64,000 nt of DNA from an uncultured Gammaproteobacteria bacterium (GTDB lineage: Bacteria > Patescibacteriota > Patescibacteriia > Magasanikbacterales > GWA2-37-8), in the NCBI GenBank assembly GCA_964444705.1, contig CAYUHX010000003.1, positions 3,248 through 67,247 on the forward strand, in the 5' to 3' direction. The notes below the pieces were generated by a model. The model was not told the origin of the DNA. It saw only the letters and a program-made list of their open reading frames with translations, and did no database searches. Positions 15,697 through 60,341 of the stretch are shown one piece after another (position 1 is the first letter of the stretch; every line of letters begins with the position of its first letter). The position numbers and the translations under genes were made by a program.

Positions 15697-16593
15697 ATGT
15701 ATTCTCAAATTGATTCAAATAAACGCAGTTCAATACTATTGGTCATGATTTTTATCACCATTATTATTGGTCTTGGCTACGCCTACAGTCAACTCACCGG
15801 TGACAGCACCTACGGCGGCGTCTGGATTGCGATCATCATTTCTTTTTTTTCCACTATTTTTTCTTATTATCAAGGAGACACCATTGCACTCTACACAAGC
15901 GGCGCTGTGGCGATTGCGAAAGAAGACAACCCCTATCTGTATAACCTCGTCGAAAATCTTTCGATCGCTTCAGGAATTCCCATGCCTAAACTCCACATTA
16001 TTCCCGATGAGGCGATCAATGCTTTCGCCACCGGCCGCGACCCTGCACACGCTTCAATTGCGGTCACCCAAGGTGCCATTGATAAATTAGAAAACGAAGA
16101 ACTTGAAGGCGTGTTGGCACACGAACTTTCGCATGTCACCAATTACGATATTCGCTTTATGACCCTCGTTGCAGTGCTGGTAGGATCTATTTCTATTTTA
16201 GCAAATTTATTTCTCCGTTCACGCTGGTTTATGGGCGGAAAACGAAGTAATCGTGAAGGAGAAGGCAATCAACTTGGCGGCATTTTAATGATTGTCGGCA
16301 TTGTCCTCGCCATTCTTTCTCCCATTATCGCCGAACTCATTAAACTTGCCATTTCACGTCGACGTGAATATTTGGCCGATGCCTCAGGCAGTCTTTTAAC
16401 CCGCTATCCCGAAGGGTTAGCCAGCGCACTCGAAAAAATTGCTGCTGAAAACCAGCCCCTACAACAAGCCTCTCAGGCTACCGCACATCTTTTTCTTGCA
16501 AGCCCTTTTTCTCAAAAATCATTTTGGAATTTATTTGCCACCCACCCACCGATTGAAGAACGCATAAAAAAATTGCGGGAAATAGGCGTGTAA
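15697..16593 (+). CDS. htpX: M48 family zinc metalloprotease (HtpX-like)
   Basis: TM helices plus the HExxH motif (VLAHELSHVTNYD) and downstream Glu ligand region; ATG at 15697 avoids overlap with the previous ORF. Confidence 0.8.
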   Translation: MYSQIDSNKRSSILLVMIFITIIIGLGYAYSQLTGDSTYGGVWIAIIISFFSTIFSYYQGDTIALYTSGAVAIAKEDNPYLYNLVENLSIASGIPMPKLHIIPDEAINAFATGRDPAHASIAVTQGAIDKLENEELEGVLAHELSHVTNYDIRFMTLVAVLVGSISILANLFLRSRWFMGGKRSNREGEGNQLGGILMIVGIVLAILSPIIAELIKLAISRRREYLADASGSLLTRYPEGLASALEKIAAENQPLQQASQATAHLFLASPFSQKSFWNLFATHPPIEERIKKLREIGV

Positions 16594-16613
16594 AAAACAG
16601 ACACAATTGACAG

Positions 16614-16640
16614 AGCCCGCTACGGAGTACGTAGCGGGCT
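16614..16640. terminator. GC-rich hairpin terminator shared by htpX (+) and the cupin gene (-)
   Basis: Perfect 10-bp inverted repeat AGCCCGCTAC...GTAGCGGGCT; a T-run follows on the minus strand. Confidence 0.5.
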
Positions 16641-16663
16641 TGTGGCTTGGGCGGTACAGGAAC

Positions 16664-17104
16664 TCAGGTGCAGCAGCGAGCGAGGATGTCGCTCTCGCCG
16701 ACGCCCTTGGTGAGCGCATCCAGCTCAGGGCAGGCGTGCCAGTCCGGGCCTTGGGTTCGGCCGAACTTGACCGTGTGGATCGCCGCTCCCACAGGCAGGT
16801 AGACGTTGTGGGCGACGCCGATCTCGGTGGTCACGGTGTCTCCCTCCCGTAGGATCCGCCAGACCGGCTGCCCATCGCGCAGCTCCACGATCGCCATCCA
16901 GCCAGACTGGACGGCGTAGATCTCCTTCACTCCCAAGTGGAAGTGCGAGTTCTGCCAGGCACCCTCGTCACCAGCCTGAGTGCGGATGTAGCCACTTCCG
17001 TCCTGATGCATCCGGCGAAACCGGAACTCCTGGTTCGGCATCAGCTCATCCTTGATTGCAGCCATACCAAACTCCTGGGCTTCCTCGAGAGACAAATTCG
17101 CCAT
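16664..17104 (-). CDS. cupin-domain protein (high-GC island 1)
   Basis: 146-aa ORF at ~62% GC with two cupin motifs (SHFHLGVKEIYAVQSG; GDTVTTEIGVAHNV). A strong SD (GAAGGAGG) precedes the ATG. Confidence 0.65.
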   Translation of the reverse strand: MANLSLEEAQEFGMAAIKDELMPNQEFRFRRMHQDGSGYIRTQAGDEGAWQNSHFHLGVKEIYAVQSGWMAIVELRDGQPVWRILREGDTVTTEIGVAHNVYLPVGAAIHTVKFGRTQGPDWHACPELDALTKGVGESDILARCCT

Positions 17105-22876: not shown

Positions 22877-24118
22877 ATGTCGCCTACACTAAAAAAAGTG
22901 TTACTCGTGATTCTTCTTCTGCTCGTTGCTGGTGGAATTGCTTTTGCTATTTGGTGGGTTTTTTTCCCGCCCGCACCAGGCTCGGTGTATAATCCAAGCA
23001 CAGGCACTACCACCACCGGCCAACTCCCCGGCTCAAACACGAGGCCAACTGGCGGCAATGGCGGCACAGGAGGCGAAGCGCAACCAGGCAGCGGCTCTCT
23101 CCCTACCGCAGGAGCCATCCCAAGTCCCTCACCAAGCTTTTTTCGCCAAGTGCCGGTTACTAAAGTGGTCACTGAATTTGCCGACCATCCATCGCTCAAC
23201 AATAGCAGCGGCAATCTGCGCTATCAAAACCCTTCAGACGGAAAATTCTATCGCACATTGCCCGATGGCTCCGTGAAAGAATTATCTGACCAAGCTTTCT
23301 ATAACGTGCAAAATGTCACTTGGGCAAAAACAAAAGATAAAGCAGTGCTTGAATATCCCGATGGCTCCAAAATTGTCTATGATTTTGACAACAAAAAGCA
23401 AGTAACTCTCCCCCGCCATTGGGAAGAATTTTCTTTTTCTCCCGAAGGAGACGAAATTGCCGCCAAAAGCATCGGACTCTCACCAGAAAATCGCTGGCTT
23501 GTTACCACCAAAGATGATGGCACTGGCATCAAACTCATCGAACCTATGGGTGAATTTGCCGACAAAGTAACTGTCGATTGGTCGCCCAGCCGCCAAACAG
23601 TGGCACTATCACAAACCGGAGAAGCTGCCGGCGCTGACAGGCGTGAAGTACTCTTTGTTGGTTTACATGGAGAAAATTTTAAATCAACTGTTGTTGAAGG
23701 ATTGGATTTTATGTCACAATGGTCGCCTACTGGAAAAAAACTACTCTACAGCGTTGACAGTGCGCGCAGTGATTTTAAACCTGAACTCTGGGTGGCCAAT
23801 GCCTATGGAGATGAAATCGGCACCGGCCGTCAAGCACTCAAAATCAACACCTGGGCCGACAAATGTTCCTTCGGCGATGATACCACGCTTTTTTGCGCAG
23901 TACCCCGCGATTTACCCGTCGGTGCCGGCATGTCGCCCACAGTAGCCGACAACAGCATTGATGATTTATACAAAATAGACCTTAAAACTGGAGCCAAAAT
24001 ACCACTCTCGCTTGGTCAAACCAACTATCACATAAACACCCTTTTCTACGACAAAGCGCACAACAAGGTTTTCTTCACTGATAAAAATCAAAAAGGTGTT
24101 TTTGAAGTACGCCCTTAA
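22877..24118 (+). CDS. TolB-like beta-propeller (PD40/WD40-like repeats) envelope protein
   Basis: N-terminal TM/signal and a Gly/Thr-rich linker, then repeated FSPEGDEIA/WSPSRQ/WSPTGKK PD40-type motifs. Confidence 0.5.
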   Translation: MSPTLKKVLLVILLLLVAGGIAFAIWWVFFPPAPGSVYNPSTGTTTTGQLPGSNTRPTGGNGGTGGEAQPGSGSLPTAGAIPSPSPSFFRQVPVTKVVTEFADHPSLNNSSGNLRYQNPSDGKFYRTLPDGSVKELSDQAFYNVQNVTWAKTKDKAVLEYPDGSKIVYDFDNKKQVTLPRHWEEFSFSPEGDEIAAKSIGLSPENRWLVTTKDDGTGIKLIEPMGEFADKVTVDWSPSRQTVALSQTGEAAGADRREVLFVGLHGENFKSTVVEGLDFMSQWSPTGKKLLYSVDSARSDFKPELWVANAYGDEIGTGRQALKINTWADKCSFGDDTTLFCAVPRDLPVGAGMSPTVADNSIDDLYKIDLKTGAKIPLSLGQTNYHINTLFYDKAHNKVFFTDKNQKGVFEVRP

Positions 24119-32434: not shown

Positions 32435-32679
32435 TTCTGATTTTTTAGACAGAAAAGAAGCTATAGAGATGCGGAAAAGAAATTGTGATGAAGAGAATCT
32501 CATCATGGTGCTTCCTGCTAAATTTTGGCAGAAAAAACCGTGATGGGACCGCGCTGCGAGGCAGACGCGGCTGTGCCCTACCGAAGCTCTGGATTCGCCG
32601 GAGAGGCGATGCGCTTGGAAGCGCAAGCTTGGGCCAGCCGCGTGCACAGAACTTGAGTGCGGCTGATGGGAAGGTAGGT

Positions 32680-33894
32680 CTAGCGACCGGCGCGGGGCTG
32701 CGGGGCGAAGAGCGGCTGGGTCCGCTGGAACACGTGGTTCCGGGTGACCGTGCCGTCGTTGGTGATGGTGGCCTTGACCGCGGCCTCGCGCTGGGCCTCG
32801 CGGTCCTCGTGGCGCTTGAACATCTTGTCCAGGGCGTCGCCGTCCGGGAGCTTGTTCAGGTCGGCCCGGGTGGCGAGCGGCGCCAGGTCGGCGCGGGTCG
32901 CCGCCTCGCCCACGTGCGCGCTCATGGCCTGCATCAGGGTCCTGCCCTTGCTGTCGGTGACGGCGTTGCGGATCGCCCGGGTGTCGCTCTCGATGCCGCG
33001 CACGTCCTCGTGGACGGCGGTGAGCTGCGAGCGGGTACCGCTCACGTTGCCGTTGATGAACAGCGTGCTCACCAGGGCGGCGGCGCCCAAGGCGCAGGCG
33101 ACGATGGCGAAGGTGCGGATGTTGGCGACGGTGGCGATGATCACGCCGAGGCGCCGGTCCAGGCGCTCCTCGGCGCCATAGAGGTGGTGCTGAGCGACCA
33201 GATCGTCCAGGTCCTTCCGGCGCGCCAGGGGCTCCAGGTCGTCGGCGGTGACGAGGCCGGCCTTGTTCAACCGGCCGACCACGGCCTGGGCGATCGCGTC
33301 GCCGCTGAGGATCTTGCCGGCCAGGGTCTCCGCCAGCTTGGCCATCTCGGCCTGGGTGGTGACCCCGTACTCCTTCAAGATCGCCTTCATCCGATCCGCG
33401 GTCGGCACCGATCCCATGTCGCGGTGGATCGCCTTGACCATCTCATCGGTGGTCAGCGGCGGGCGCGGCGGGGTCAGCGGCGGGCGCGAGTCGGGGCGGG
33501 ACTGGGTGCCGTTGCCGGTGCCGGGCAGGGTGGGGGTGCGGGACTGGGGCTGCGGGCCCGTGGGGCTCTTGGAGGGCTGCTGGGCGGGGGCGCCGTTGGC
33601 CGGGGCGGCCGCCTTGTCGCCGTTGGTGGCCGGGACGGCCACGGGCTGGGCCGGGGCGGCCGCGGCGGGCTGCTTGGTGCCGGCGGGGGCGCCGTTGGCC
33701 TGCGGGGCGACGTCCTGCTTCTCGGTCTTGCCGCCGCCCACATCCTCCATCGGGATGGGGATGCTGCCGCTGTCCCCGGGCTTGGCCTGGGGCTGCTGCG
33801 CCAACTGGAGGGCGGTGCCGATGGGCAGGGTGCCGGTGACGGGCGGCTGGCCAGCGGGCAGGACGGGGGACGAGGGACCAGTCTGGGTCTGCAT
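32680..33894 (-). CDS. Pro/Ala-rich membrane protein (high-GC island 2, ~70% GC)
   Basis: 404-aa ORF with SD AAGGAG upstream, a low-complexity P/A/Q-rich N-terminus, one TM (GVIIATVANIRTFAIVACALGAAALVSTLFI) and a helical C-terminal domain. Confidence 0.55.
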   Translation of the reverse strand: MQTQTGPSSPVLPAGQPPVTGTLPIGTALQLAQQPQAKPGDSGSIPIPMEDVGGGKTEKQDVAPQANGAPAGTKQPAAAAPAQPVAVPATNGDKAAAPANGAPAQQPSKSPTGPQPQSRTPTLPGTGNGTQSRPDSRPPLTPPRPPLTTDEMVKAIHRDMGSVPTADRMKAILKEYGVTTQAEMAKLAETLAGKILSGDAIAQAVVGRLNKAGLVTADDLEPLARRKDLDDLVAQHHLYGAEERLDRRLGVIIATVANIRTFAIVACALGAAALVSTLFINGNVSGTRSQLTAVHEDVRGIESDTRAIRNAVTDSKGRTLMQAMSAHVGEAATRADLAPLATRADLNKLPDGDALDKMFKRHEDREAQREAAVKATITNDGTVTRNHVFQRTQPLFAPQPRAGR

Positions 33895-34160
33895 TGCGGT
33901 ACTCCTTGATGTCTGCTGTTTTCGGTGAACTGGAAAAAAAACCCTTGCTCATGTGTGGAGTTCCCCCCACAAAGACAGGGTATTCGACGCTTGAACTATT
34001 CAAGCGACAAATACCCCATCTTTTGAGAGGAAGCTTTTTCCGCTCATAAACCTACCTTAAATTGTAAAGAACTTATTTCGGCCAAAAAAGACCATTTCTT
34101 TTTTGACTTTAGGCTGTTTAAACAGTGCTTTATTTCTTTCAATTGTTTAAACAACAAATC

Positions 34161-41376: not shown

Positions 41377-41394
41377 CCAGTCTTTTCAGACTGG
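41377..41394 (-). terminator. rho-independent terminator downstream of tRNA-Leu
   Basis: Hairpin CCAGTCT-gaaa-AGACTGG followed by T8 on the minus strand. Confidence 0.55.
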
Positions 41395-41425
41395 AGATTT
41401 ATTCTATACATTTATTTGTTATAAC

Positions 41426-41510
41426 TGGTGCCGCCGGTCGGAATCGAACCGACATGCCGTGAGGCACACGATTTTGAGTCGTGCGTGTCTACCAATTCCA
41501 CCACGGCGGC
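41426..41510 (-). tRNA. tRNA-Leu (anticodon CAA), CCA encoded
   Basis: Cloverleaf GCCGCCG.../...CGGCGGC-A-CCA, anticodon loop CUCAAAA, long variable arm and T-loop TTCGATT. Confidence 0.85.
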
Positions 41511-41517
41511 AATACTA

Positions 41518-41757
41518 CTAATCAAAAGTCTTTTTTACAAATTCTCTACCAACACCTGATTTTAAATATTTTTCTCGTTTCCTCGCTTCTTCTCTTGATG
41601 AGTGGGTTTCAATACACAAAGTTCTAAAAGGAGCATAAGGTTTGGTAGTACGATTATACCCTTTATTATGCTGAGCAATACGCCGCTCGGGATTATCTGA
41701 TAATCCTACGTACGTGTACTCCCGCGCAATACTTCTAAGTATATAGGTGTAATACAT
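41518..41757 (-). CDS. small GIY-YIG nuclease-domain protein (UPF0213/YhbQ-like)
   Basis: 79-aa ORF containing YTYILRS...YVGLSDNPERRIAQHN...REEARKREKYLK, the GIY-YIG catalytic core pattern. Confidence 0.65.
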   Translation of the reverse strand: MYYTYILRSIAREYTYVGLSDNPERRIAQHNKGYNRTTKPYAPFRTLCIETHSSREEARKREKYLKSGVGREFVKKTFD

Positions 41758-41765
41758 AGAAAAGC

Positions 41766-41831
41766 CACACGATTTTGAGCCTGCCTGTCGGCAGACAGGT
41801 CGTGCGTGTCTACCAATTCCACCACGGCGGC
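41766..41831 (-). pseudogene. partial duplicate of the tRNA-Leu 5' half carrying a 20-nt GC-rich palindromic insert
   Basis: GCCGCCGTGGTGGAATTGGTAGACACGCACGA is identical to the intact tRNA. CCTGTCTGCCGACAGGCAGG is then inserted before the anticodon loop. CTCAAAATCGTGTG follows, after which the sequence diverges into the GIY-YIG start. Confidence 0.45.
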
Positions 41832-41920
41832 CTAAAATGCCTGCTCATCATATAAAAAAAAAATTCCTTTGTCAATCAATTAGGCGTATGGTATACTTTG
41901 TTAAAATAGTAGCGTCTTCT

Positions 41921-45514: not shown

Positions 45515-45541
45515 AACACTCCCTATTGAGGGAGGAGATTG

Positions 45542-45991
45542 ATGCAACGAGTTACAATTTTTCCAAAGCACTCTTCCTGGCTGGCGTTGCTGGCCGCAGT
45601 CCACATCGGTGGCTGCGATCTGGCACCACCGGCTGAGACGCCTCGCACACCAAAGATCGAGATCTACGGCGAAGCTGACCGCGCCTGCGCCCACACGCCG
45701 GCCGGCTCCAGCCTGCTCGAATGCACCAACTACAGCGGCCAGCTCCTCTGGGGAGCAGAAGCCGCCTGCATCATCAGCATCACCCGTGACGCGACAGCGA
45801 GCGTCTGCACGGTGGCCTGCACCGCGCAGGGATCGCCCAACCACGTGGTGGCGCTCGGCGACCTCACCTTCCTGACACTGGTCGACGGCGTCCCAACCCA
45901 GGTGGGAACTGAAGACCGTTCTGCCACTATGGCGGGCACGACCTGGTGCAACGCAGCGCCCAAGTCGCAACCGCGGACCGGCCAGAAGTAG
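45542..45991 (+). CDS. putative lipoprotein, Cys-rich (high-GC island 3)
   Basis: Signal peptide with a lipobox-like HIGGC, ~65% GC and a strong SD. Confidence 0.55.
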   Translation: MQRVTIFPKHSSWLALLAAVHIGGCDLAPPAETPRTPKIEIYGEADRACAHTPAGSSLLECTNYSGQLLWGAEAACIISITRDATASVCTVACTAQGSPNHVVALGDLTFLTLVDGVPTQVGTEDRSATMAGTTWCNAAPKSQPRTGQK

Positions 45992-46083
45992 CCACGCCGT
46001 CTTCCTCGTCGTCTCCTCGCCGGCCATGCAACCCTGCGGTTGTGTGGCCGGCTCGACTTTCACTTTATTTCTGTTTCAAAAAA

Positions 46084-46112
46084 CCCCAGGTTATGAACCT
46101 GAGGCTTTTTTA
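46084..46112. terminator. bidirectional terminator between the lipoprotein gene (+) and the membrane protein gene (-)
   Basis: Hairpin CAGGTT-atg-AACCTG with extended pairing, flanked by an A-run and a T-run. Confidence 0.5.
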
Positions 46113-56419: not shown

Positions 56420-56633
56420 ATTGCGCAACCATTTAGCATCACTCAATTCAATCACTTCTCGTCGAAGAAAAAATTCTCCCTTTGGCTCGGATAAAGATTC
56501 CGGACAAAAGGGCGAACGACGAGGGGTGGCGGAAGAACAATGCGGCGGCGCCCCCAGCAGTGCGATGCTGCTGGCCGGAGGCGCGACTGCGCGCTGAGTT
56601 GGGATGGTCCAGAGTCCGCGCCGTGCCCGTGGG

Positions 56634-57221
56634 TTACGGGGTGGGGGCGGCCGGCGCCACCTGCTGCGCGATGATCCAGTCCACCGTCAAGAAACTGCCG
56701 CCACCGCGCTTCAGGATGGGCGCGTACTTATCATAGTACGCCTGCGTGATACGCACCGCGGCCTGCCCCCCCAGCTGCACGTAGGTCGGGGACGGCCAGA
56801 GGGTCGGATACTCGGAGGGCGAAAGGTAGCTGTCGCACGTCTGGCCGACCATCCCGAACTTCGCGCAGGGGGCGGGTCCGTGGGCGGTGACCTGGACCAG
56901 GAAGACGGTGGACGAACTGAGAGGGAAGCTGGCCTTGTCCGACGGCGTGAAGTAGCAGGCGGTGACCGACGTCGTCCGCTGCTCATTCAGCCCCTTCGCC
57001 TCGTACTGGCAGGACCACTCGCCGTCCTTGGTGGGGCCGGGGGTGACGATGAACTGGACCAGGCCATCGTACTGCTGCAGAGAGGGGGGGAAGACGAAGT
57101 CGAACTCGTATGGGGTGACGACGTCGCCCTTTCCACCGCAGCCGGCGCTACCCATGGCGAGGGCCAGGGCGATGCCGAGGACGAAGGAACGACCCTTGTT
57201 CTGATTCTTGCTGTCACGCAT
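56634..57221 (-). CDS. putative lipoprotein (high-GC island 4)
   Basis: ~65% GC, SD AGGAGA with the ATG at 57221, a signal peptide plus a Cys after ...LAMGSAGC, and several further Cys. Confidence 0.55.
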   Translation of the reverse strand: MRDSKNQNKGRSFVLGIALALAMGSAGCGGKGDVVTPYEFDFVFPPSLQQYDGLVQFIVTPGPTKDGEWSCQYEAKGLNEQRTTSVTACYFTPSDKASFPLSSSTVFLVQVTAHGPAPCAKFGMVGQTCDSYLSPSEYPTLWPSPTYVQLGGQAAVRITQAYYDKYAPILKRGGGSFLTVDWIIAQQVAPAAPTP

Positions 57222-57511
57222 CGGAAACACTCTCCTGTAGATTATTCATGCTTCCCTCTCAGCCAACCGAAGCCGAGGGAACAATGGCAAGGACCTAAAA
57301 ACATCTCTGTCTCCAGGCGGTTAAAGAAGCACTTTTTTAAAAAGAAATTCTTCAGCCGCCTGGAAAAAATTGGAAAAGATCAAATGTTATTACCCTTAAA
57401 CCAAAGATAACAACAAATCAAACTAACATACTGTTTAGTAGCTGTCAAGCTATTGTCGAGATAGTTTTATTCTATTTTGTTTATTCTTAGCCAAATATTA
57501 TTTTTTACCCC

Positions 57512-57540
57512 TTGACAAATGGCAAAAAATGTGCTAACTT
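57512..57540 (+). promoter_or_regulatory. candidate promoter (TTGACA-17-TAACTT) in the low-GC spacer between the two divergent high-GC lipoprotein genes
   Basis: The -35 hexamer is consensus but the -10 is weak. Confidence 0.3.
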
Positions 57541-57717
57541 AGTTTTAATTTAGTTGTATCTCTCTTTGAGAAGCAATTTGCTCATTACCAAATTATTTCG
57601 GGAAAAATATACAGCTCCAGTGAGTTGGGGAGAATAGAGTCGTGCCAAATAAAACAGTTTTGGATTCTCTTTTCTCTCCAGCTATCTCTACCATCTGCAA
57701 GTCCCCGCGCCAACAAG

Positions 57718-57732
57718 GGCGGGGCAGACAGG
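57718..57732. repeat. left 15-bp inverted repeat (GGCGGGGCAGACAGG) flanking island 5
   Basis: Matches the reverse complement of 58973-58987 (GGCAGGGCAGACAGG) at 14 of 15 positions. Confidence 0.4.
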
Positions 57733-57739
57733 AGCACCC

Positions 57740-58546
57740 ATGTGTCTTTCCATCAATGGTTCTGTGCGTCGTTTCTTCGTCATCACCGGCCTCCTCCTGA
57801 CCGCCGCGGCCAGCGGCTGCGGCATCTGGCCGGAGGAGCACTACGCGACCGGCGATTCGACCGTGTACGAGCCGGTCATGAAGGCGCCGGACGCGCCCAT
57901 GCCCCCGGCGGCGACCTGCTACGACCTGGTCTTCGAGAAGAACGCGTCGTCCAAGGGCGCCAGCGCCCAGGGCTACTACTGGTTCGATGCCAACACCTCC
58001 CACACCCAGTTCGCGGCCGGGTCCTTCAGCCTGCTGAACCCGACCGGGACCGGGCAGTACTGCAACGTCACCATCCCGGCCCCCGACGGCCACCTGGCGA
58101 GCCTGTCCATCCCGCGAATGGCTGCCAACTTCCGCCACACCACCGCACAGTCGGGCAAGCTCATCACGATCATCGACTACAACATCGACCTCCCCCAGGA
58201 GCCGCGGGTGGAGTCCCTGCAGATCGTGGTCTTCGCCGACCAGCTGGCGCCCAACGACACGTGCGCCGGCGAGCGGACCCGCCTGGCCTTCAACGGCCTC
58301 GCCATCACGGCTCGCACCTGCTCGATCCGCTCGGCCAACGGCAGCAGCACGACCCCGGCGGTGACCCAGTTCACCATCAACGAGGTGAACGGCGGCTGCC
58401 TCCTGCAGCAGCGGACCGGCAACGGCAGCCCGGCCATCTACACCCAGGCAGCCGCGGAGGTTGAGGCTGACAGCGCCGGGGCCGACTGGAGCTTCCAGTC
58501 CACCCAGCTGGCCAGCGACGACCTGGTCGAGTGCTCCGCGCAGTAG
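57740..58546 (+). CDS. putative lipoprotein (high-GC island 5)
   Basis: ~66% GC, SD CAGGAG, a signal peptide ending AAASGC and Cys-containing, Gly/Thr/Ala-rich mature protein. Confidence 0.55.
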   Translation: MCLSINGSVRRFFVITGLLLTAAASGCGIWPEEHYATGDSTVYEPVMKAPDAPMPPAATCYDLVFEKNASSKGASAQGYYWFDANTSHTQFAAGSFSLLNPTGTGQYCNVTIPAPDGHLASLSIPRMAANFRHTTAQSGKLITIIDYNIDLPQEPRVESLQIVVFADQLAPNDTCAGERTRLAFNGLAITARTCSIRSANGSSTTPAVTQFTINEVNGGCLLQQRTGNGSPAIYTQAAAEVEADSAGADWSFQSTQLASDDLVECSAQ

Positions 58547-58683
58547 GCGCCGCGCCACTTTTTCCCGACCCCACCGGAGATCATCCGCCGCCGCTCCCCC
58601 TCGCATGAGGGGTCGAGCGCTCGCTGCCCGTCTCCTCCTGCTTTCTGTTAATAATTATTGTTAACAAAAAGTAGGACACAAAA

Positions 58684-58712
58684 AATCCTCTCATTGATTG
58701 AGAGGATTTTTT
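58684..58712. terminator. bidirectional rho-independent terminator
   Basis: Perfect 10-bp stem AATCCTCTCA-ttgat-TGAGAGGATT flanked by A5 and T6. Confidence 0.55.
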
Positions 58713-58972
58713 ATTGACTCTAACTCATTTTCATCACCTATTACTTTTTTGTGCGGACAAAAAAGTAATCAAAAAAACCGCCGAACTAATGCTTCACTCC
58801 GCCACTGCCATCGGTTCGCCCTCACTGACGAGCTGAACTCGCTTTGGCTCAGACAGCAGCTCGCCTCCTTTAAGGATCGTTCAGGCTCACCGTGGCCAGA
58901 TGGCGTCGCTTCACATATGTTCGGTGTGGATGTGATGCACGTGTCGTTTATTTATAGCTTTCACATCCACAC

Positions 58973-59012
58973 CCTGTCTGCCCTGCCTACCGGCAGGCAG
59001 GCGACAGGCAGG
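58973..59012. repeat. 40-nt GC-rich nested palindromic element (expanded form of the 20-mer in the pseudo-tRNA)
   Basis: CCTGTCTGCC+CTGCCTACCGGCAGGCAGGC+GACAGGCAGG; the outer 10+10 nt equal the 20-mer found at 41780-41799 (reverse complement). Confidence 0.45.
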
Positions 59013-59030
59013 CTAAAAACTAAAACCTTT

Positions 59031-59051
59031 AACCTAAAACCTACAACCTAA
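59031..59051. repeat. three tandem copies of heptamer AACCTA(A/C) abutting the asnS stop
   Basis: AACCTAA AACCTAC AACCTAA. Confidence 0.4.
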
Positions 59052-59054
59052 GAG

Positions 59055-60341
59055 CTAGGGTCGGAGTCTTCCAATCGTGCGCGGAAAAGGAATACATTCA
59101 CGTATATGTTCTACCCCCGCAATCCAGCGCACTGCTCGCTCAAGGCCAATACCAAAACCCGAATGTGGCACGCCGCCAAAACGACGAGTATCGAGATACC
59201 ATTCATAATCAACCATATTCAGACCCTCTTCTTTAATACGCGCAATGAGGACATCCACATTTTCTTCACGTTGACTGCCGCCGATGAGCTCTCCCCCGCC
59301 TTCAGTGGCAATGAGGTCATCATTAAAGACGCGCTCCTCGTTCGTGGGATCAGTCTTCATATAAAAAGGTTTAATACTCTTGGGCCATTTTTCAATAAAC
59401 ACCGGCACGGCGCTATCTTTGGTAAGTAGTCCCTCATCATCATTTCCTAAATCTTCACCATATTTAATATCTGATCCAAGCTCGTTTAATTTTACAATCG
59501 CTGCTTCGTAGGTATATCGCGTAAATGGTGCATCGGCGGCTTTTAATTTGGTCACATCACGCTCAAGGATAGTCAATTCTTCTTGGCAACGCTCTAGAGA
59601 ACGGCGAATGATAAAACGCACCAAACCTTCTTGCAGCGCCAGGTTTCCTTCATGCTCCACAAAAGCCGCTTCGGCATCCATCATCCAAAATTCGGTGAGA
59701 TGACGTTTGGTTTTACTTTTTTCTGCGCGAAAGACCGGACCAAAATCATAACAACGGCCAACAGAAGCAATGGCCGCCTCAATGTAGAGTTGACCAGATT
59801 GCGAAAGATACGCTTCGCCTAAATCAAAATACGGCACGGCAAACAAAGTGGTGGTACCCTCACAGGCGTTGGGTGTGAACACTGGCGAATCGACACGAAT
59901 AAATTTTTCTTGATGCAAATACTCGTTGATGGCCATGATTATAGTGTCGCGAATCCGGAGAATGGCCCATTGCCGTTTACTGCGCAGCCACAAGTGCCTA
60001 TTGTCCATGAGAAAATCTGGACCATGCTCTTTTTTGGCAATGGGATAATCAACTGCTAACTGTAAAATGGCAAAATCAGTTACTTGTAATTCAAAGATAT
60101 TGTCATTTTTTGGATGTTTCGCCACCACACCAGTCACATTCACCGATGATTCTTGGGAAGCAGTTTCTACGGCCGCCCACACCTCACTAGACAACCCTTT
60201 TTGCACAGCCACCGCTTGCACGAATCCAGAACCATCACGTATTTCGAGAAAAGCAATTGGCCCGGAAGAGCGCTTGTTATTTAGCCAGCCTTTAACAGTC
60301 ACCGTTTCGCCCACGTGGGAAGAAAATTCTGAGATCAACAT
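59055..60341 (-). CDS. asnS: asparagine--tRNA ligase
   Basis: N-terminal OB anticodon-binding domain and class II motifs, including FRAEKSKTKRHLTEFWMMDAEAAF (compare E. coli AsnS FRAENSNTSRHLAEFWM). Confidence 0.9.
   Translation of the reverse strand: MLISEFSSHVGETVTVKGWLNNKRSSGPIAFLEIRDGSGFVQAVAVQKGLSSEVWAAVETASQESSVNVTGVVAKHPKNDNIFELQVTDFAILQLAVDYPIAKKEHGPDFLMDNRHLWLRSKRQWAILRIRDTIIMAINEYLHQEKFIRVDSPVFTPNACEGTTTLFAVPYFDLGEAYLSQSGQLYIEAAIASVGRCYDFGPVFRAEKSKTKRHLTEFWMMDAEAAFVEHEGNLALQEGLVRFIIRRSLERCQEELTILERDVTKLKAADAPFTRYTYEAAIVKLNELGSDIKYGEDLGNDDEGLLTKDSAVPVFIEKWPKSIKPFYMKTDPTNEERVFNDDLIATEGGGELIGGSQREENVDVLIARIKEEGLNMVDYEWYLDTRRFGGVPHSGFGIGLERAVRWIAGVEHIRECIPFPRTIGRLRP

What the first reader, a model, noticed from the sequence alone, without database searches (positions are those of the whole stretch)
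57718..59012. Island 5 (high-GC lipoprotein) is flanked by 15-bp inverted repeats related to the pseudo-tRNA palindrome: a small GC-rich repeat family at three loci
The 15-mer GGCGGGGCAGACAGG at 57718-57732 overlaps the SD of the lipoprotein gene. At 58973-58987 the reverse complement of CCTGTCTGCCCTGCC matches it at 14 of 15 positions. Together they bracket the gene and its terminator (~1.27 kb). The right-hand copy is part of a 40-nt nested palindrome whose outer 10+10 nt are exactly the 20-mer inserted in the tRNA-Leu fragment at 41780-41799. The 10-mer GGCAGACAGG or its complement therefore occurs three times in 64 kb, against an expectation of ~0.1, and always at apparent cassette boundaries. 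This is consistent with terminal inverted repeats of a MITE-like or cassette-mobilising element, or a recombinase recognition site.
Basis: seen in the sequence. Interest (0 to 1): 0.55.

Follow-up and report, generated by a model that had tools for sequence, protein, structure and literature searches.

The report
Tiny pan-bacterial palindrome, not island ends
The three GC-rich motifs are copies of a 20-base palindromic insert found letter-for-letter in many bacterial phyla and phages, and its usual home is a broken tRNA copy next to a tiny GIY-YIG nuclease gene, so they are not the ends of an element carrying the lipoprotein gene.

Summary
GGCAGACAGG occurs 3 times against 0.06 expected. The 15-mers match 14 of 15. 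The 40-mer is the tRNA-fragment 20-mer with a related 20-mer nested at its centre.

The motifs are a real family, here called PAL. It has three main variants:
- V1: CCTGCCTGCCGGCAGGCAGG
- V2: CCTGCCTACCGGCAGGCAGG
- V3: CCTGTCTGCCGACAGGCAGG

They are not terminal repeats of the lipoprotein island. Related genomes have high-GC islands at the same place without PAL. The two flanking copies point away from the gene.

Exact V3 occurs in more than 120 contigs from many phyla and in 23 viral contigs, with unrelated flanks and no target duplication.

In 80 metagenome loci chosen only for a homologue of the window's 79-aa GIY-YIG gene (41518-41757), 68 carry PAL. It is inserted precisely in loops of a redundant tRNA fragment beside an intact tRNA, nearly always tRNA-Leu. 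The window has this same layout. Two relatives have the same tRNA-Leu(CAA)/parA locus empty.

Best reading: PAL is a tiny interspersed palindromic insert linked to a tRNA-parked, Slx1/UPF0213-like mini nuclease, loosely analogous to REP/RAYT. That the nuclease moves PAL is an inference (about 0.35). I found no published description.

The parts
41780..41799 (-). PAL variant V3 (CCTGTCTGCCGACAGGCAGG). It is inserted exactly between the 5' strand of the anticodon stem and the anticodon loop of a redundant tRNA-Leu 5' fragment.
   Evidence: There are 12 identical bases on each side compared with the intact tRNA, inserted after tRNA nt 32. Nothing is duplicated or deleted.
41766..41831 (-). Pseudo-tRNA. 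It holds the first 46 nt of tRNA-Leu(CAA) (32 + 14 nt, identical to the intact gene), interrupted by the 20-nt PAL.
   Evidence: row WIN.
41518..41757 (-). GIY-YIG nuclease ORF of 79 aa, consisting of the catalytic domain only. It lies between the pseudo-tRNA and the intact tRNA-Leu.
   Evidence: Pfam PF01541, E=1.7e-17. Profile hits to UPF0213 (1zg2, E=9e-9) and Slx1 (6seh, E=1.5e-4). It is 39-54% identical to cassette-linked homologues, including ones from Flavobacteriaceae and a Melioribacter MAG.
41426..41510 (-). Intact tRNA-Leu(CAA), starting 7 nt after the GIY-YIG stop codon.
   Evidence: ARAGORN. Rfam tRNA, 59.9 bits.
41847..41875 (-). Promoter-like site (TTGACA-17-TATGAT, 11 of 12) upstream of the pseudo-tRNA. 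One transcription unit would cover the fragment, the ORF and the tRNA.
   Evidence: This is a consensus match only.
41377..41394 (-). Terminator-like hairpin plus T-run downstream of the intact tRNA-Leu.
58973..59012 (+). Solo nested PAL. V3 forms the outer arms (58973-58982 and 59003-59012), with V2 (58982-59001) inserted at its dyad centre. It lies in the intergenic DNA 43 nt downstream of the asnS stop.
   Evidence: DNA fold -12.8 kcal/mol, z = -3.0. The same nesting position is seen in L006, L069 and L148.
57718..57732 (-). V3-type left arm plus 5 nt (CCTGTCTGCCCCGCC). It is a half or decayed PAL copy in the 5' UTR of the lipoprotein gene and may extend to 57691.
   Evidence: 14 of 15 to the nested copy. 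The extension is weak.

Best explanation
SHOWN.
- The three motifs are copies of a family of about 20-nt GC-rich palindromic inserts (PAL: V1 CCTGCCTGCCGGCAGGCAGG, V2 CCTGCCTACCGGCAGGCAGG, V3 CCTGTCTGCCGACAGGCAGG).
- The family is present, identical to the base, in many bacterial phyla and in phage contigs.
- PAL is a clean insertion with no target duplication or deletion. It sits mostly in intergenic DNA, preferentially in loops of existing hairpins, including the centre of other PAL copies.
- It is most concentrated in the loops of redundant tRNA fragments flanking a roughly 80-aa GIY-YIG nuclease gene parked next to a tRNA gene, nearly always tRNA-Leu.
- The window holds one such cassette at 41377-41875: promoter, 5' tRNA-Leu fragment with V3, GIY-YIG ORF, intact tRNA-Leu, terminator. 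This cassette is absent from the same tRNA-Leu(CAA)/parA locus in two relatives.
- The window also holds two dispersed copies: a nested V3+V2 at 58973-59012 and a half or decayed V3 at 57718-57732.
- The lipoprotein island merely lies between these two dispersed copies.

INFERRED.
- PAL copies multiply within a genome. Copies in one genome or contig share the same variant.
- They persist where an insertion is harmless.

HYPOTHESIS (about 0.35).
- The Slx1/UPF0213-like nuclease is the cognate enzyme. It would recognise or cut hairpin or cruciform DNA at stem-loop junctions.
- The nuclease and PAL would then form a two-part selfish system, analogous to RAYT with REP, that uses tRNA genes as a safe harbour.
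For: Family is real and far above chance:
My own arithmetic gives about 1 expected for 596 Gb.
- Flanks are unrelated across these hits.
- Viral contigs hold V3 in 23 stretches and V1 in 35. A composition-matched control palindrome gave 0.

Precise insertion:
- 49 comparisons of a PAL-bearing tRNA fragment with the adjacent intact tRNA show exact flanks.
- Hot spots in tRNA-Leu linear coordinates are nt 14/15, 22/23, 32, 39, 44, 64/65 and 67/68.
- No target duplication in 100 independent copies.
- In viral contig L128, PAL splits the conserved YopX motif IGNIH|DNPEL, which is intact in L263.

Preference for hairpin loops:
- A stem of 6 bp or more spans the insertion site in 18.5% of copies, against 10.5 +/- 2.3% in the null.
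- Nesting at the dyad centre recurs.

Link to the GIY-YIG gene:
- 68 of 80 loci chosen only for the protein carry family elements.
- 46 loci have the window's layout (class A), 19 have the mirror layout with a 3' fragment (class B), and 3 have both.
- L151 appears, by eye in the listing, to carry V1 at the same tRNA position as the window.

Cassette mobility: L144 and L146 have an intact tRNA-Leu(CAA) divergent from parA with no ORF, fragment or PAL.

Variant concordance:
- Extra copies in V3-selected loci are 15 V3 to 1 V1. Extra copies in V1-selected loci are 7 V1 to 0 V3.
- In the window, three of the four arms or units are V3-type.

Enzyme type: GIY-YIG core positions (the two Tyr, Arg, His, Glu) are invariant in the alignment, and the nearest solved relatives are UPF0213 and Slx1.

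Co-occurrence: Gaetbulibacter aestuarii has a solo PAL (L002), and a GIY-YIG gene (P0127) whose listed longest contig has the same length, 1,918,929 nt.
Against: - No biochemical or expression data exist.
- The enzyme link rests on physical linkage only.
- A hydrolytic GIY-YIG nuclease cannot by itself cut and rejoin DNA, so host ligase or repair would be needed.
- Only about 6% of PAL-selected loci and 2 of 58 PAL-bearing viral loci have the gene within the fetched flanks, so any action would be in trans.
- Redundant tRNA fragments might collect PAL simply because they are the only dispensable tRNA-like hairpins.
- Cross-phylum identity of a 20-mer is not explained by any established mechanism.
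- I saw only 64 kb of the source genome, so copy number there is unknown.
- The 57718 copy is only a half-site.
Confidence: 0.7

Rival explanations
1. First reader's model. The two 15-mers are terminal inverted repeats (or recombinase sites) of a MITE-like or cassette-mobilising element that carried the high-GC lipoprotein gene into this locus.
For: There is a 14 of 15 inverted match bracketing the gene. The region downstream of asnS is a variable hot spot for high-GC orphan genes in relatives.
Against: - Each arm belongs to its own palindrome that extends away from the gene.
- Palindromes always look like inverted repeats of one another.
- No target duplication.
- The right arm lies 426 nt past the stop codon, beyond the island edge and a terminator-like hairpin.
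- The gene is an orphan and the unit is single-copy.
- The other islands in the window lack the motif.
- L144, L146 and L147 have islands at the same place without any PAL.
Confidence: 0.04
2. PAL is a mobile micro-palindrome that is independent of the GIY-YIG nuclease. An unidentified trans-acting activity (a Y1/HUH RAYT-like enzyme, another nuclease, or replication or repair at hairpins) inserts it into hairpin loops. GIY-YIG-linked tRNA fragments carry it only because they are dispensable, highly structured, highly transcribed DNA.
For: - Most copies are solo and far from any GIY-YIG gene.
- Insertion sites are generally enriched in loops of other hairpins.
- Several loops of one dispensable tRNA copy can each carry a PAL (L150, L183, L208).
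- The PAL position is fixed at tRNA loops while the fragment end varies.
Against: - PAL is found in 68 of 80 GIY-YIG loci. By my estimate that is roughly 80 times denser in those fragments than in the window's other non-coding DNA.
- No recurrent transposase-like family appears among the ORFs of 120 PAL-bearing loci.
- The conserved protein and the conserved palindrome share the same unusual cross-phylum spread.
Confidence: 0.22
3. PAL is not mobile. It is a functional module kept by selection, for example an RNA hairpin for termination, processing or stability; an anti-recombination spacer that stops the duplicated tRNA segments from deleting the ORF; or a disruption of the nuclease's own tRNA recognition site, as SegB recognises the T-loop motif.
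For: - The exact sequence is kept at the same tRNA position in different genera and phyla while neighbouring non-coding DNA diverges (L042, L054, L057, L100).
- T4 SegB recognises a tRNA T-stem-loop motif.
- REPs are thought to act as RNA elements.
Against: - There is no orientation or position bias relative to genes: 32 ++, 21 --, 13 convergent, 14 divergent.
- Copies occur inside a coding sequence and cause a frameshift.
- PAL nests inside PAL.
- PAL is not centred in the duplicated tRNA segment.
- A structural role would allow compensatory variation, yet the asymmetric V3 is kept exactly in 137 copies.
Confidence: 0.08
4. Chance or compositional artefact of GC-rich sequence, or an assembly or adapter artefact.
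For: Two of the three window copies lie near high-GC DNA.
Against: - 0 of 100 shuffles reach the observed count.
- The motif is absent from the coding parts of all the islands.
- It is present in isolate genomes and complete chromosomes from many sources, in the interior of contigs.
- The control palindrome gave 0 hits.
Confidence: 0.01

Closest known systems
REP elements with their RAYT (Y1/HUH) transposases
   Same: Both are 20-40-nt imperfect palindromes scattered mostly between genes, sometimes inside genes and often next to each other. A single-copy nuclease-type gene is physically flanked by copies. Families are genome-specific (for REP; here).
   Different: PAL has no GTAG or CGTC tag (versus the sequence). 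The associated gene is a GIY-YIG, not a Y1/HUH transposase. The identical 20-mer occurs across phyla and in phages. PAL inserts in tRNA loops. The nuclease gene is parked in a tRNA-Leu gene with a partial tRNA duplication.
Free-standing GIY-YIG homing endonuclease genes in tRNA regions (phage T4 SegB)
   Same: Both involve a GIY-YIG gene embedded among tRNA genes. SegB's recognition site includes the conserved tRNA T-stem-loop motif. Here the gene is present or absent at a conserved tRNA-Leu locus among relatives.
   Different: The protein here is only 79 aa, a catalytic domain with no DNA-binding domain. It sits in bacterial chromosomes of many phyla. It always comes with a partial tRNA duplication carrying a palindromic insert. 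No homing has been demonstrated.
GC clusters of yeast mitochondria and the GC-rich PstI palindromes flanking tRNA genes in Neurospora mitochondria (recalled from memory, not checked here)
   Same: Both are short GC-rich palindromic inserts in AT-richer genomes, seen as presence/absence polymorphisms. They are often near tRNA genes and sometimes sit inside genes or other copies.
   Different: Those are organellar and lineage-specific, and usually longer (about 30-50 nt). No cognate nuclease is known for them, and they are not shared across phyla.
MITEs and IS200/IS605-derived palindrome-associated elements
   Same: Both are non-autonomous, hairpin-forming and dispersed. IS200/IS605 elements also insert without a target duplication.
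   Different: PAL is only 16-21 nt, has no subterminal structure or fixed target tetranucleotide, and no parent IS was found.

Membership tests
   The two arms are the outer ends of two separate palindromes that extend away from the gene. Any two palindromic copies mimic inverted repeats.
   There is no direct repeat outside 57718 or 58987. No duplication at 100 independent PAL copies or 49 tRNA sites.
   The lipoprotein has no homologue. Relatives have other islands and no PAL at that locus.
REP / RAYT | 20-40-nt imperfect palindrome, interspersed, mostly extragenic | tested here: met
   Copy number in the source genome is unknown beyond 3 in 64 kb.
REP / RAYT | Conserved unpaired GTAG or CGTC tag at one end | tested here: not met
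   The feature is defined in PMC3733652. PAL variants begin with CCTG and end with CAGG. Flanks show only weak preferences: A at -3 in 54% and C at +1 in 56%.
REP / RAYT | Cognate Y1/HUH tyrosine transposase gene flanked by the repeats | tested here: inconclusive
   No recurrent transposase-like family among the ORFs of 120 PAL loci. The flanked gene is instead a GIY-YIG. The window's ORFs were not all scanned against Pfam.
Free-standing GIY-YIG homing endonuclease | GIY-YIG catalytic domain with the core residues | tested here: met
   PF01541, E=1.7e-17. Invariant Y5, Y16, G18, R26, H30 and E62.
Free-standing GIY-YIG homing endonuclease | Separate DNA-binding domain recognising a long asymmetric site | tested here: not met
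   The protein is 79 aa and the domain covers residues 1-67. Nearest relatives are UPF0213 and Slx1, not I-TevI or Seg proteins.
Free-standing GIY-YIG homing endonuclease | Gene present or absent at a conserved target locus among relatives | tested here: met
   The window has the cassette. L144 and L146 have the bare tRNA-Leu(CAA) next to parA.
Free-standing GIY-YIG homing endonuclease | Site-specific cleavage of the empty allele and biased inheritance | not testable with these tools
   This needs biochemistry or crosses, as was done for SegB.
tRNA intron | Insert interrupts an otherwise complete, needed tRNA gene | tested here: not met
   Deleting PAL restores a full tRNA in only 2 of 180 copies. 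In cassettes an intact tRNA lies alongside.

The most novel reading that the evidence does not exclude
PAL and the roughly 80-aa Slx1/UPF0213-like GIY-YIG nuclease form a previously undescribed two-part selfish system spread across bacterial phyla and their phages. The nuclease gene rides in tRNA genes (mostly tRNA-Leu), which it keeps functional through a partial duplication. It cuts hairpin or cruciform DNA at stem-loop junctions. This allows a 20-nt hairpin, which would be the smallest mobile DNA unit known, to be copied into loops of other hairpins. It would be a REP/RAYT analogue built on a different catalytic superfamily.
Probability: 0.3. Interest if true: 0.85.

Novelty: new variant of a known kind. 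Interest (0 to 1): 0.66.

Why it matters
If the link holds, it gives a function to a very large family of unannotated mini GIY-YIG (UPF0213-like) proteins, with more than 7,500 clusters in one search.

It would also add a second enzymatic route to REP-like genome colonisation. It would explain why an identical 20-mer, and spurious peptides such as LPVGRQ, LPTGQAG and PVCRQAG, turn up in unrelated genomes and phages.

It offers a directly testable system: a 79-aa protein plus a 20-nt hairpin plus tRNA-gene DNA.

For annotation, PAL-bearing tRNA fragments mark a mobile cassette, and PAL copies should not be read as transposon ends.

For this window, the high-GC lipoprotein islands need a different explanation from palindrome-mediated mobilisation.

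Tried and rejected
- Exact-product look-ups for the window's AsnRS and lipoprotein, and for the 100%-identical P0001, found nothing on record. I could not reach the rest of the source genome.
- The lipoprotein and the other island ORFs had no significant Pfam hit (only a sub-threshold Cupin_2 match for 16664-17104), and the lipoprotein had no homologue.
- Rfam at gathering threshold found only 3 tRNAs. The permissive scan of 58550-59100 gave only terminator-like and chance hits. Eight cassettes showed nothing but tRNA.
- A perfect-stem GC hairpin scan of the window found only two unrelated hairpins.
- Target-site duplication and flank complementarity tests were negative.
- A search for a recurrent transposase near PAL was negative.
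- The terminator scan of 57400-59100 called nothing. The hairpin at about 58680-58713 is read from the sequence and.
- PAL as a tRNA intron was rejected.
- PAL as a spacer optimised to break the direct repeat was rejected. Its position is fixed at tRNA loops, not centred.
- The resemblance of CTGCCGACAGGCAG to the type I-F CRISPR repeat hairpin and to a CTGT-N6-ACAG LexA-like box was considered from memory. Both were dropped because there are no arrays, the spacing is wrong and the locations look random.
- Adapter or assembly artefact was rejected.
- The empty-site scan for L142 found only the filled site.
- Seven full-text literature searches, including the literal sequences, found no description.
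Full report
**1. Observation**

- GGCAGACAGG or its complement occurs three times (41790, 57723, 58973). Shuffles give 0.06 expected, and none of 100 shuffles reaches three.
- The 15-mer at 57718-57732 matches the complement of 58973-58987 at 14 of 15.
- 58973-59012 is a 40-nt nested palindrome. Its outer arms are CCTGTCTGCC and GACAGGCAGG, which is the 20-mer of 41780-41799 read on the other strand.
- The inner 20 nt, CCTGCCTACCGGCAGGCAGG, is itself a relative of that 20-mer (3 mismatches).
- The 40-mer is therefore one palindrome inserted at the centre of another. All three sites fold as hairpins.

**2. Setting**

The window is 45% GC and holds six single-gene islands of 58-70% GC. AsnRS homologues place it among Magasanikbacteria-like Patescibacteria.

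The gene at 57740-58546 has a lipoprotein-type signal peptide, no Pfam domain and no detectable homologue.

The left motif lies in its 5' UTR. The right motif starts 426 nt after its stop codon. It is beyond the island edge and beyond a hairpin plus U-tract at about 58680-58713, and only 43 nt from the asnS stop.

**3. The tRNA locus**

On the minus strand the order is:
- a promoter-like site (41875-41847, 11 of 12);
- 46 nt identical to the start of tRNA-Leu(CAA), interrupted after nt 32 by exactly the 20-mer;
- a 79-aa ORF (41757-41518);
- the intact tRNA-Leu (41510-41426);
- a terminator-like hairpin.

The ORF is a GIY-YIG catalytic domain (PF01541, E=1.7e-17). Its nearest solved relatives are UPF0213 proteins and the structure-specific nuclease Slx1.

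**4. The 20-mer is not local**

Nearly all carry the gapless exact 20-mer. Sources include:
- Bacteroidota, Saccharibacteria and other Patescibacteria;
- Nitrospirota, Planctomycetota, Desulfobacterota, Cyanobacteria and others;
- isolates and complete chromosomes as well as MAGs.

By my arithmetic about one hit would be expected by chance.

Flanks are unrelated between hits. There is no target duplication and no flank complementarity. The only flank preferences are weak: A at -3 in 54% and C at +1 in 56%.

Copies lie mostly between genes, in every gene orientation.

Viral contigs carry V3 in 23 stretches and the perfect palindrome V1 in 35. A composition-matched control palindrome gave none.

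No Rfam family covers it. No paper in the searchable library prints it.

**5. Link to the GIY-YIG gene**

Six of the PAL-selected loci had the 20-mer inside a tRNA 5' fragment just upstream of a homologue of the window's ORF, and a seventh (L014) had it in a 3' tRNA fragment beside one.

I then sampled in the other direction. I fetched 80 metagenome loci chosen only for a relative of the protein.
- Nearly all sit beside a tRNA-Leu gene.
- 68 of the 80 carry family palindromes: V1 43 times, V2 12 times, V3 10 times, plus 16-21-nt variants.

Two layouts recur:
- Class A (46 loci, the window's layout): 5' tRNA fragment with PAL, then the ORF, then the intact tRNA.
- Class B (19 loci): intact tRNA, then the ORF, then a 3' tRNA fragment with PAL.
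- Three further loci show both layouts.

In 49 cases the PAL-bearing fragment matches the intact tRNA exactly on both sides of the insert. The inserts fall at tRNA-Leu linear positions 14/15 (24 cases), 22/23 (7), 32 (the window), 39 (4), 44 (2) and 64/65 (6), plus single cases at 12, 67 and 68 and two at nt 51 of tRNA-Gly. These are loops or stem-loop junctions. Nothing is duplicated or lost.

The PAL position stays constant while the ORF-proximal end of the fragment varies. Nearly complete redundant tRNA copies carry a PAL in several loops (L150, L183, L208).

**6. Evidence for insertion and spread**

(a) Two relatives of the window (AsnRS 83-89% identical) have the same tRNA-Leu(CAA) gene divergent from parA, but without the ORF, fragment or PAL. 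The cassette is therefore a presence/absence polymorphism.

(b) In viral contig L128 the 20-mer splits the conserved YopX motif IGNIH|DNPEL. That motif is intact in L263. The insert shifts the reading frame and truncates the domain match.

(c) Solo copies lie in loops of other hairpins more often than the null: 18.5% against 10.5 +/- 2.3% have a stem of 6 bp or more spanning the site. PAL-in-PAL nesting is always at the dyad centre (window, L006, L069, L148, L001, L040, L093).

(d) Variants agree within a genome neighbourhood. Extra copies are 15 V3 to 1 V1 in V3-selected loci, and 7 V1 to 0 V3 in V1-selected loci. The window follows this rule: V3 in the cassette, V3 as the outer element at 58973, a V3-type arm at 57723, and one V2.

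(e) Deleting PAL restores a full tRNA in only 2 of 180 copies, so PAL is not a tRNA intron.

**7. The lipoprotein island**

The two flanking copies have their CCTG ends toward the gene and extend away from it. The gene therefore lies between two elements, not inside one.
- No other island border in the window has a family member.
- Relatives L144, L146 and L147 also have high-GC orphan genes directly downstream of asnS, yet no PAL arm within those loci apart from one chance-level hit in L146 inside parB.
- The left copy is solid only as a 15-mer. The alignment of 57691-57732 to the 40-mer is matched by 2 of 412 control windows.

I conclude the island was not mobilised by these repeats.

**8. 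Mechanism**

Shown:
- PAL is a sequence-defined 20-nt insert.
- It enters DNA precisely and favours hairpin loops.
- It is extremely concentrated in dispensable tRNA fragments next to a conserved mini GIY-YIG gene.
- That gene's cassette is itself gained or lost at tRNA-Leu.

Inferred:
- PAL spreads within genomes.
- It survives where it does no harm.

Hypothesis (about 0.35): the Slx1-like nuclease recognises or cuts hairpin or cruciform DNA at stem-loop junctions and is PAL's cognate enzyme. This would account for three things:
- the physical linkage;
- the loop targets;
- the parallel cross-phylum conservation of protein and palindrome (39-54% identity between the window's protein and cassette-linked homologues from other lineages).

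Both layouts, and the near-complete decaying tRNA copies, could arise from a Campbell-type homologous integration of a circular [ORF + tRNA] unit, followed by erosion of the redundant tRNA copy. This is my inference and I did not test it.

Weak points of the hypothesis:
- A hydrolytic nuclease cannot rejoin DNA.
- Most solo copies are far from the gene.
- The fragments could collect PAL simply because they are dispensable.

**9. Comparison with known systems**

- REP/RAYT is closest in logic, but REPs carry a GTAG or CGTC tag and a Y1 transposase. PAL has neither.
- T4 SegB is a GIY-YIG homing enzyme among tRNA genes that recognises the T-stem-loop motif. It is a full-length site-specific enzyme without palindromic satellites.
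- Mitochondrial GC clusters resemble PAL in form only (from memory).
- I found no description of this cassette or of these 20-mers. The library lacks most subscription journals, so prior description cannot be excluded.

**10. Verdict**

The 'ends of Island 5' reading is rejected.

Noticed in passing
window 16541-17080, 22921-23220, 32501-34000, 45521-46100, 56441-57280, 57641-58700; also L144 11400-13500, L146 12800-14600, L147 11600-17500: The 45% GC Patescibacteria backbone carries single-gene islands of 58-70% GC. Each appears to have a native-looking promoter and terminator. Most encode orphans, and several have lipoprotein signal peptides. Relatives carry different high-GC genes at the same spot downstream of asnS. 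Their origin (transfer from high-GC hosts?) is unexplained.
   Followed up: partly
window 58923-58972 and 59013-59054: A perfect 13-bp-stem hairpin (GGTGTGGATGTGA...TCACATCCACACC) directly abuts the nested PAL. Short AGGTT(T)T-type repeats lie between PAL and the asnS stop. In relatives asnS is followed at once by a plain terminator. The 58713-58972 stretch (about 50% GC) has no assigned function.
   Followed up: no
L147 11618-11650; L020; L081; L012, L015, L066, L101: Other small GC-rich palindromes recur across unrelated genomes. One is ...TTCCCGC(N)GCGGGAATGAC.... Another is TCCCGATAGCTATCGGGA in Flavobacteriia. PAL is therefore one of several cross-lineage micro-palindrome families.
   Followed up: no
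L198, L207, L149, L182 (upstream of the GIY-YIG ORF): Some cassettes carry different palindromes at the same tRNA D-loop positions, for example TCCGCCAAAGGCGGA and AGTCGCCTTAGGCGACC. This hints that the palindrome type may co-vary with the nuclease lineage.
   Followed up: no
L042, L054, L057, L086, L100, L180, L189 versus L150, L156, L160, L167, L171, L172: The asymmetric V3 is in the same orientation as the ORF when it lies in 5' fragments upstream of the ORF. It is in the opposite orientation in 3' fragments downstream. This gives a mirror arrangement around the gene. The lineages are not independent, so the significance is unclear.
   Followed up: partly
L125 2955-3974 (-) and 2371-2958 (-): In a high-GC viral contig, long open frames read through several PAL copies as LPVGRQG or LPTGQAG peptide repeats ahead of what looks, by eye, like a muramidase-type C-terminal region. 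These may be in-frame coding insertions or a spurious N-terminal extension.
   Followed up: no
L252 2284-2303: In a viral contig, V1 sits at position 45 (the variable region) of an otherwise complete tRNA-Met. It might be tolerated there as an extra arm.
   Followed up: no
window 41426-41510 versus L144 15093-15177 and L146 15014-15096: The window's tRNA-Leu(CAA) differs from those of its relatives in the acceptor and anticodon stems (GCCGCCG... versus GCCCAGA...). It resembles the tRNA of cassette L151. The cassette may therefore have brought or converted the tRNA.
   Followed up: no
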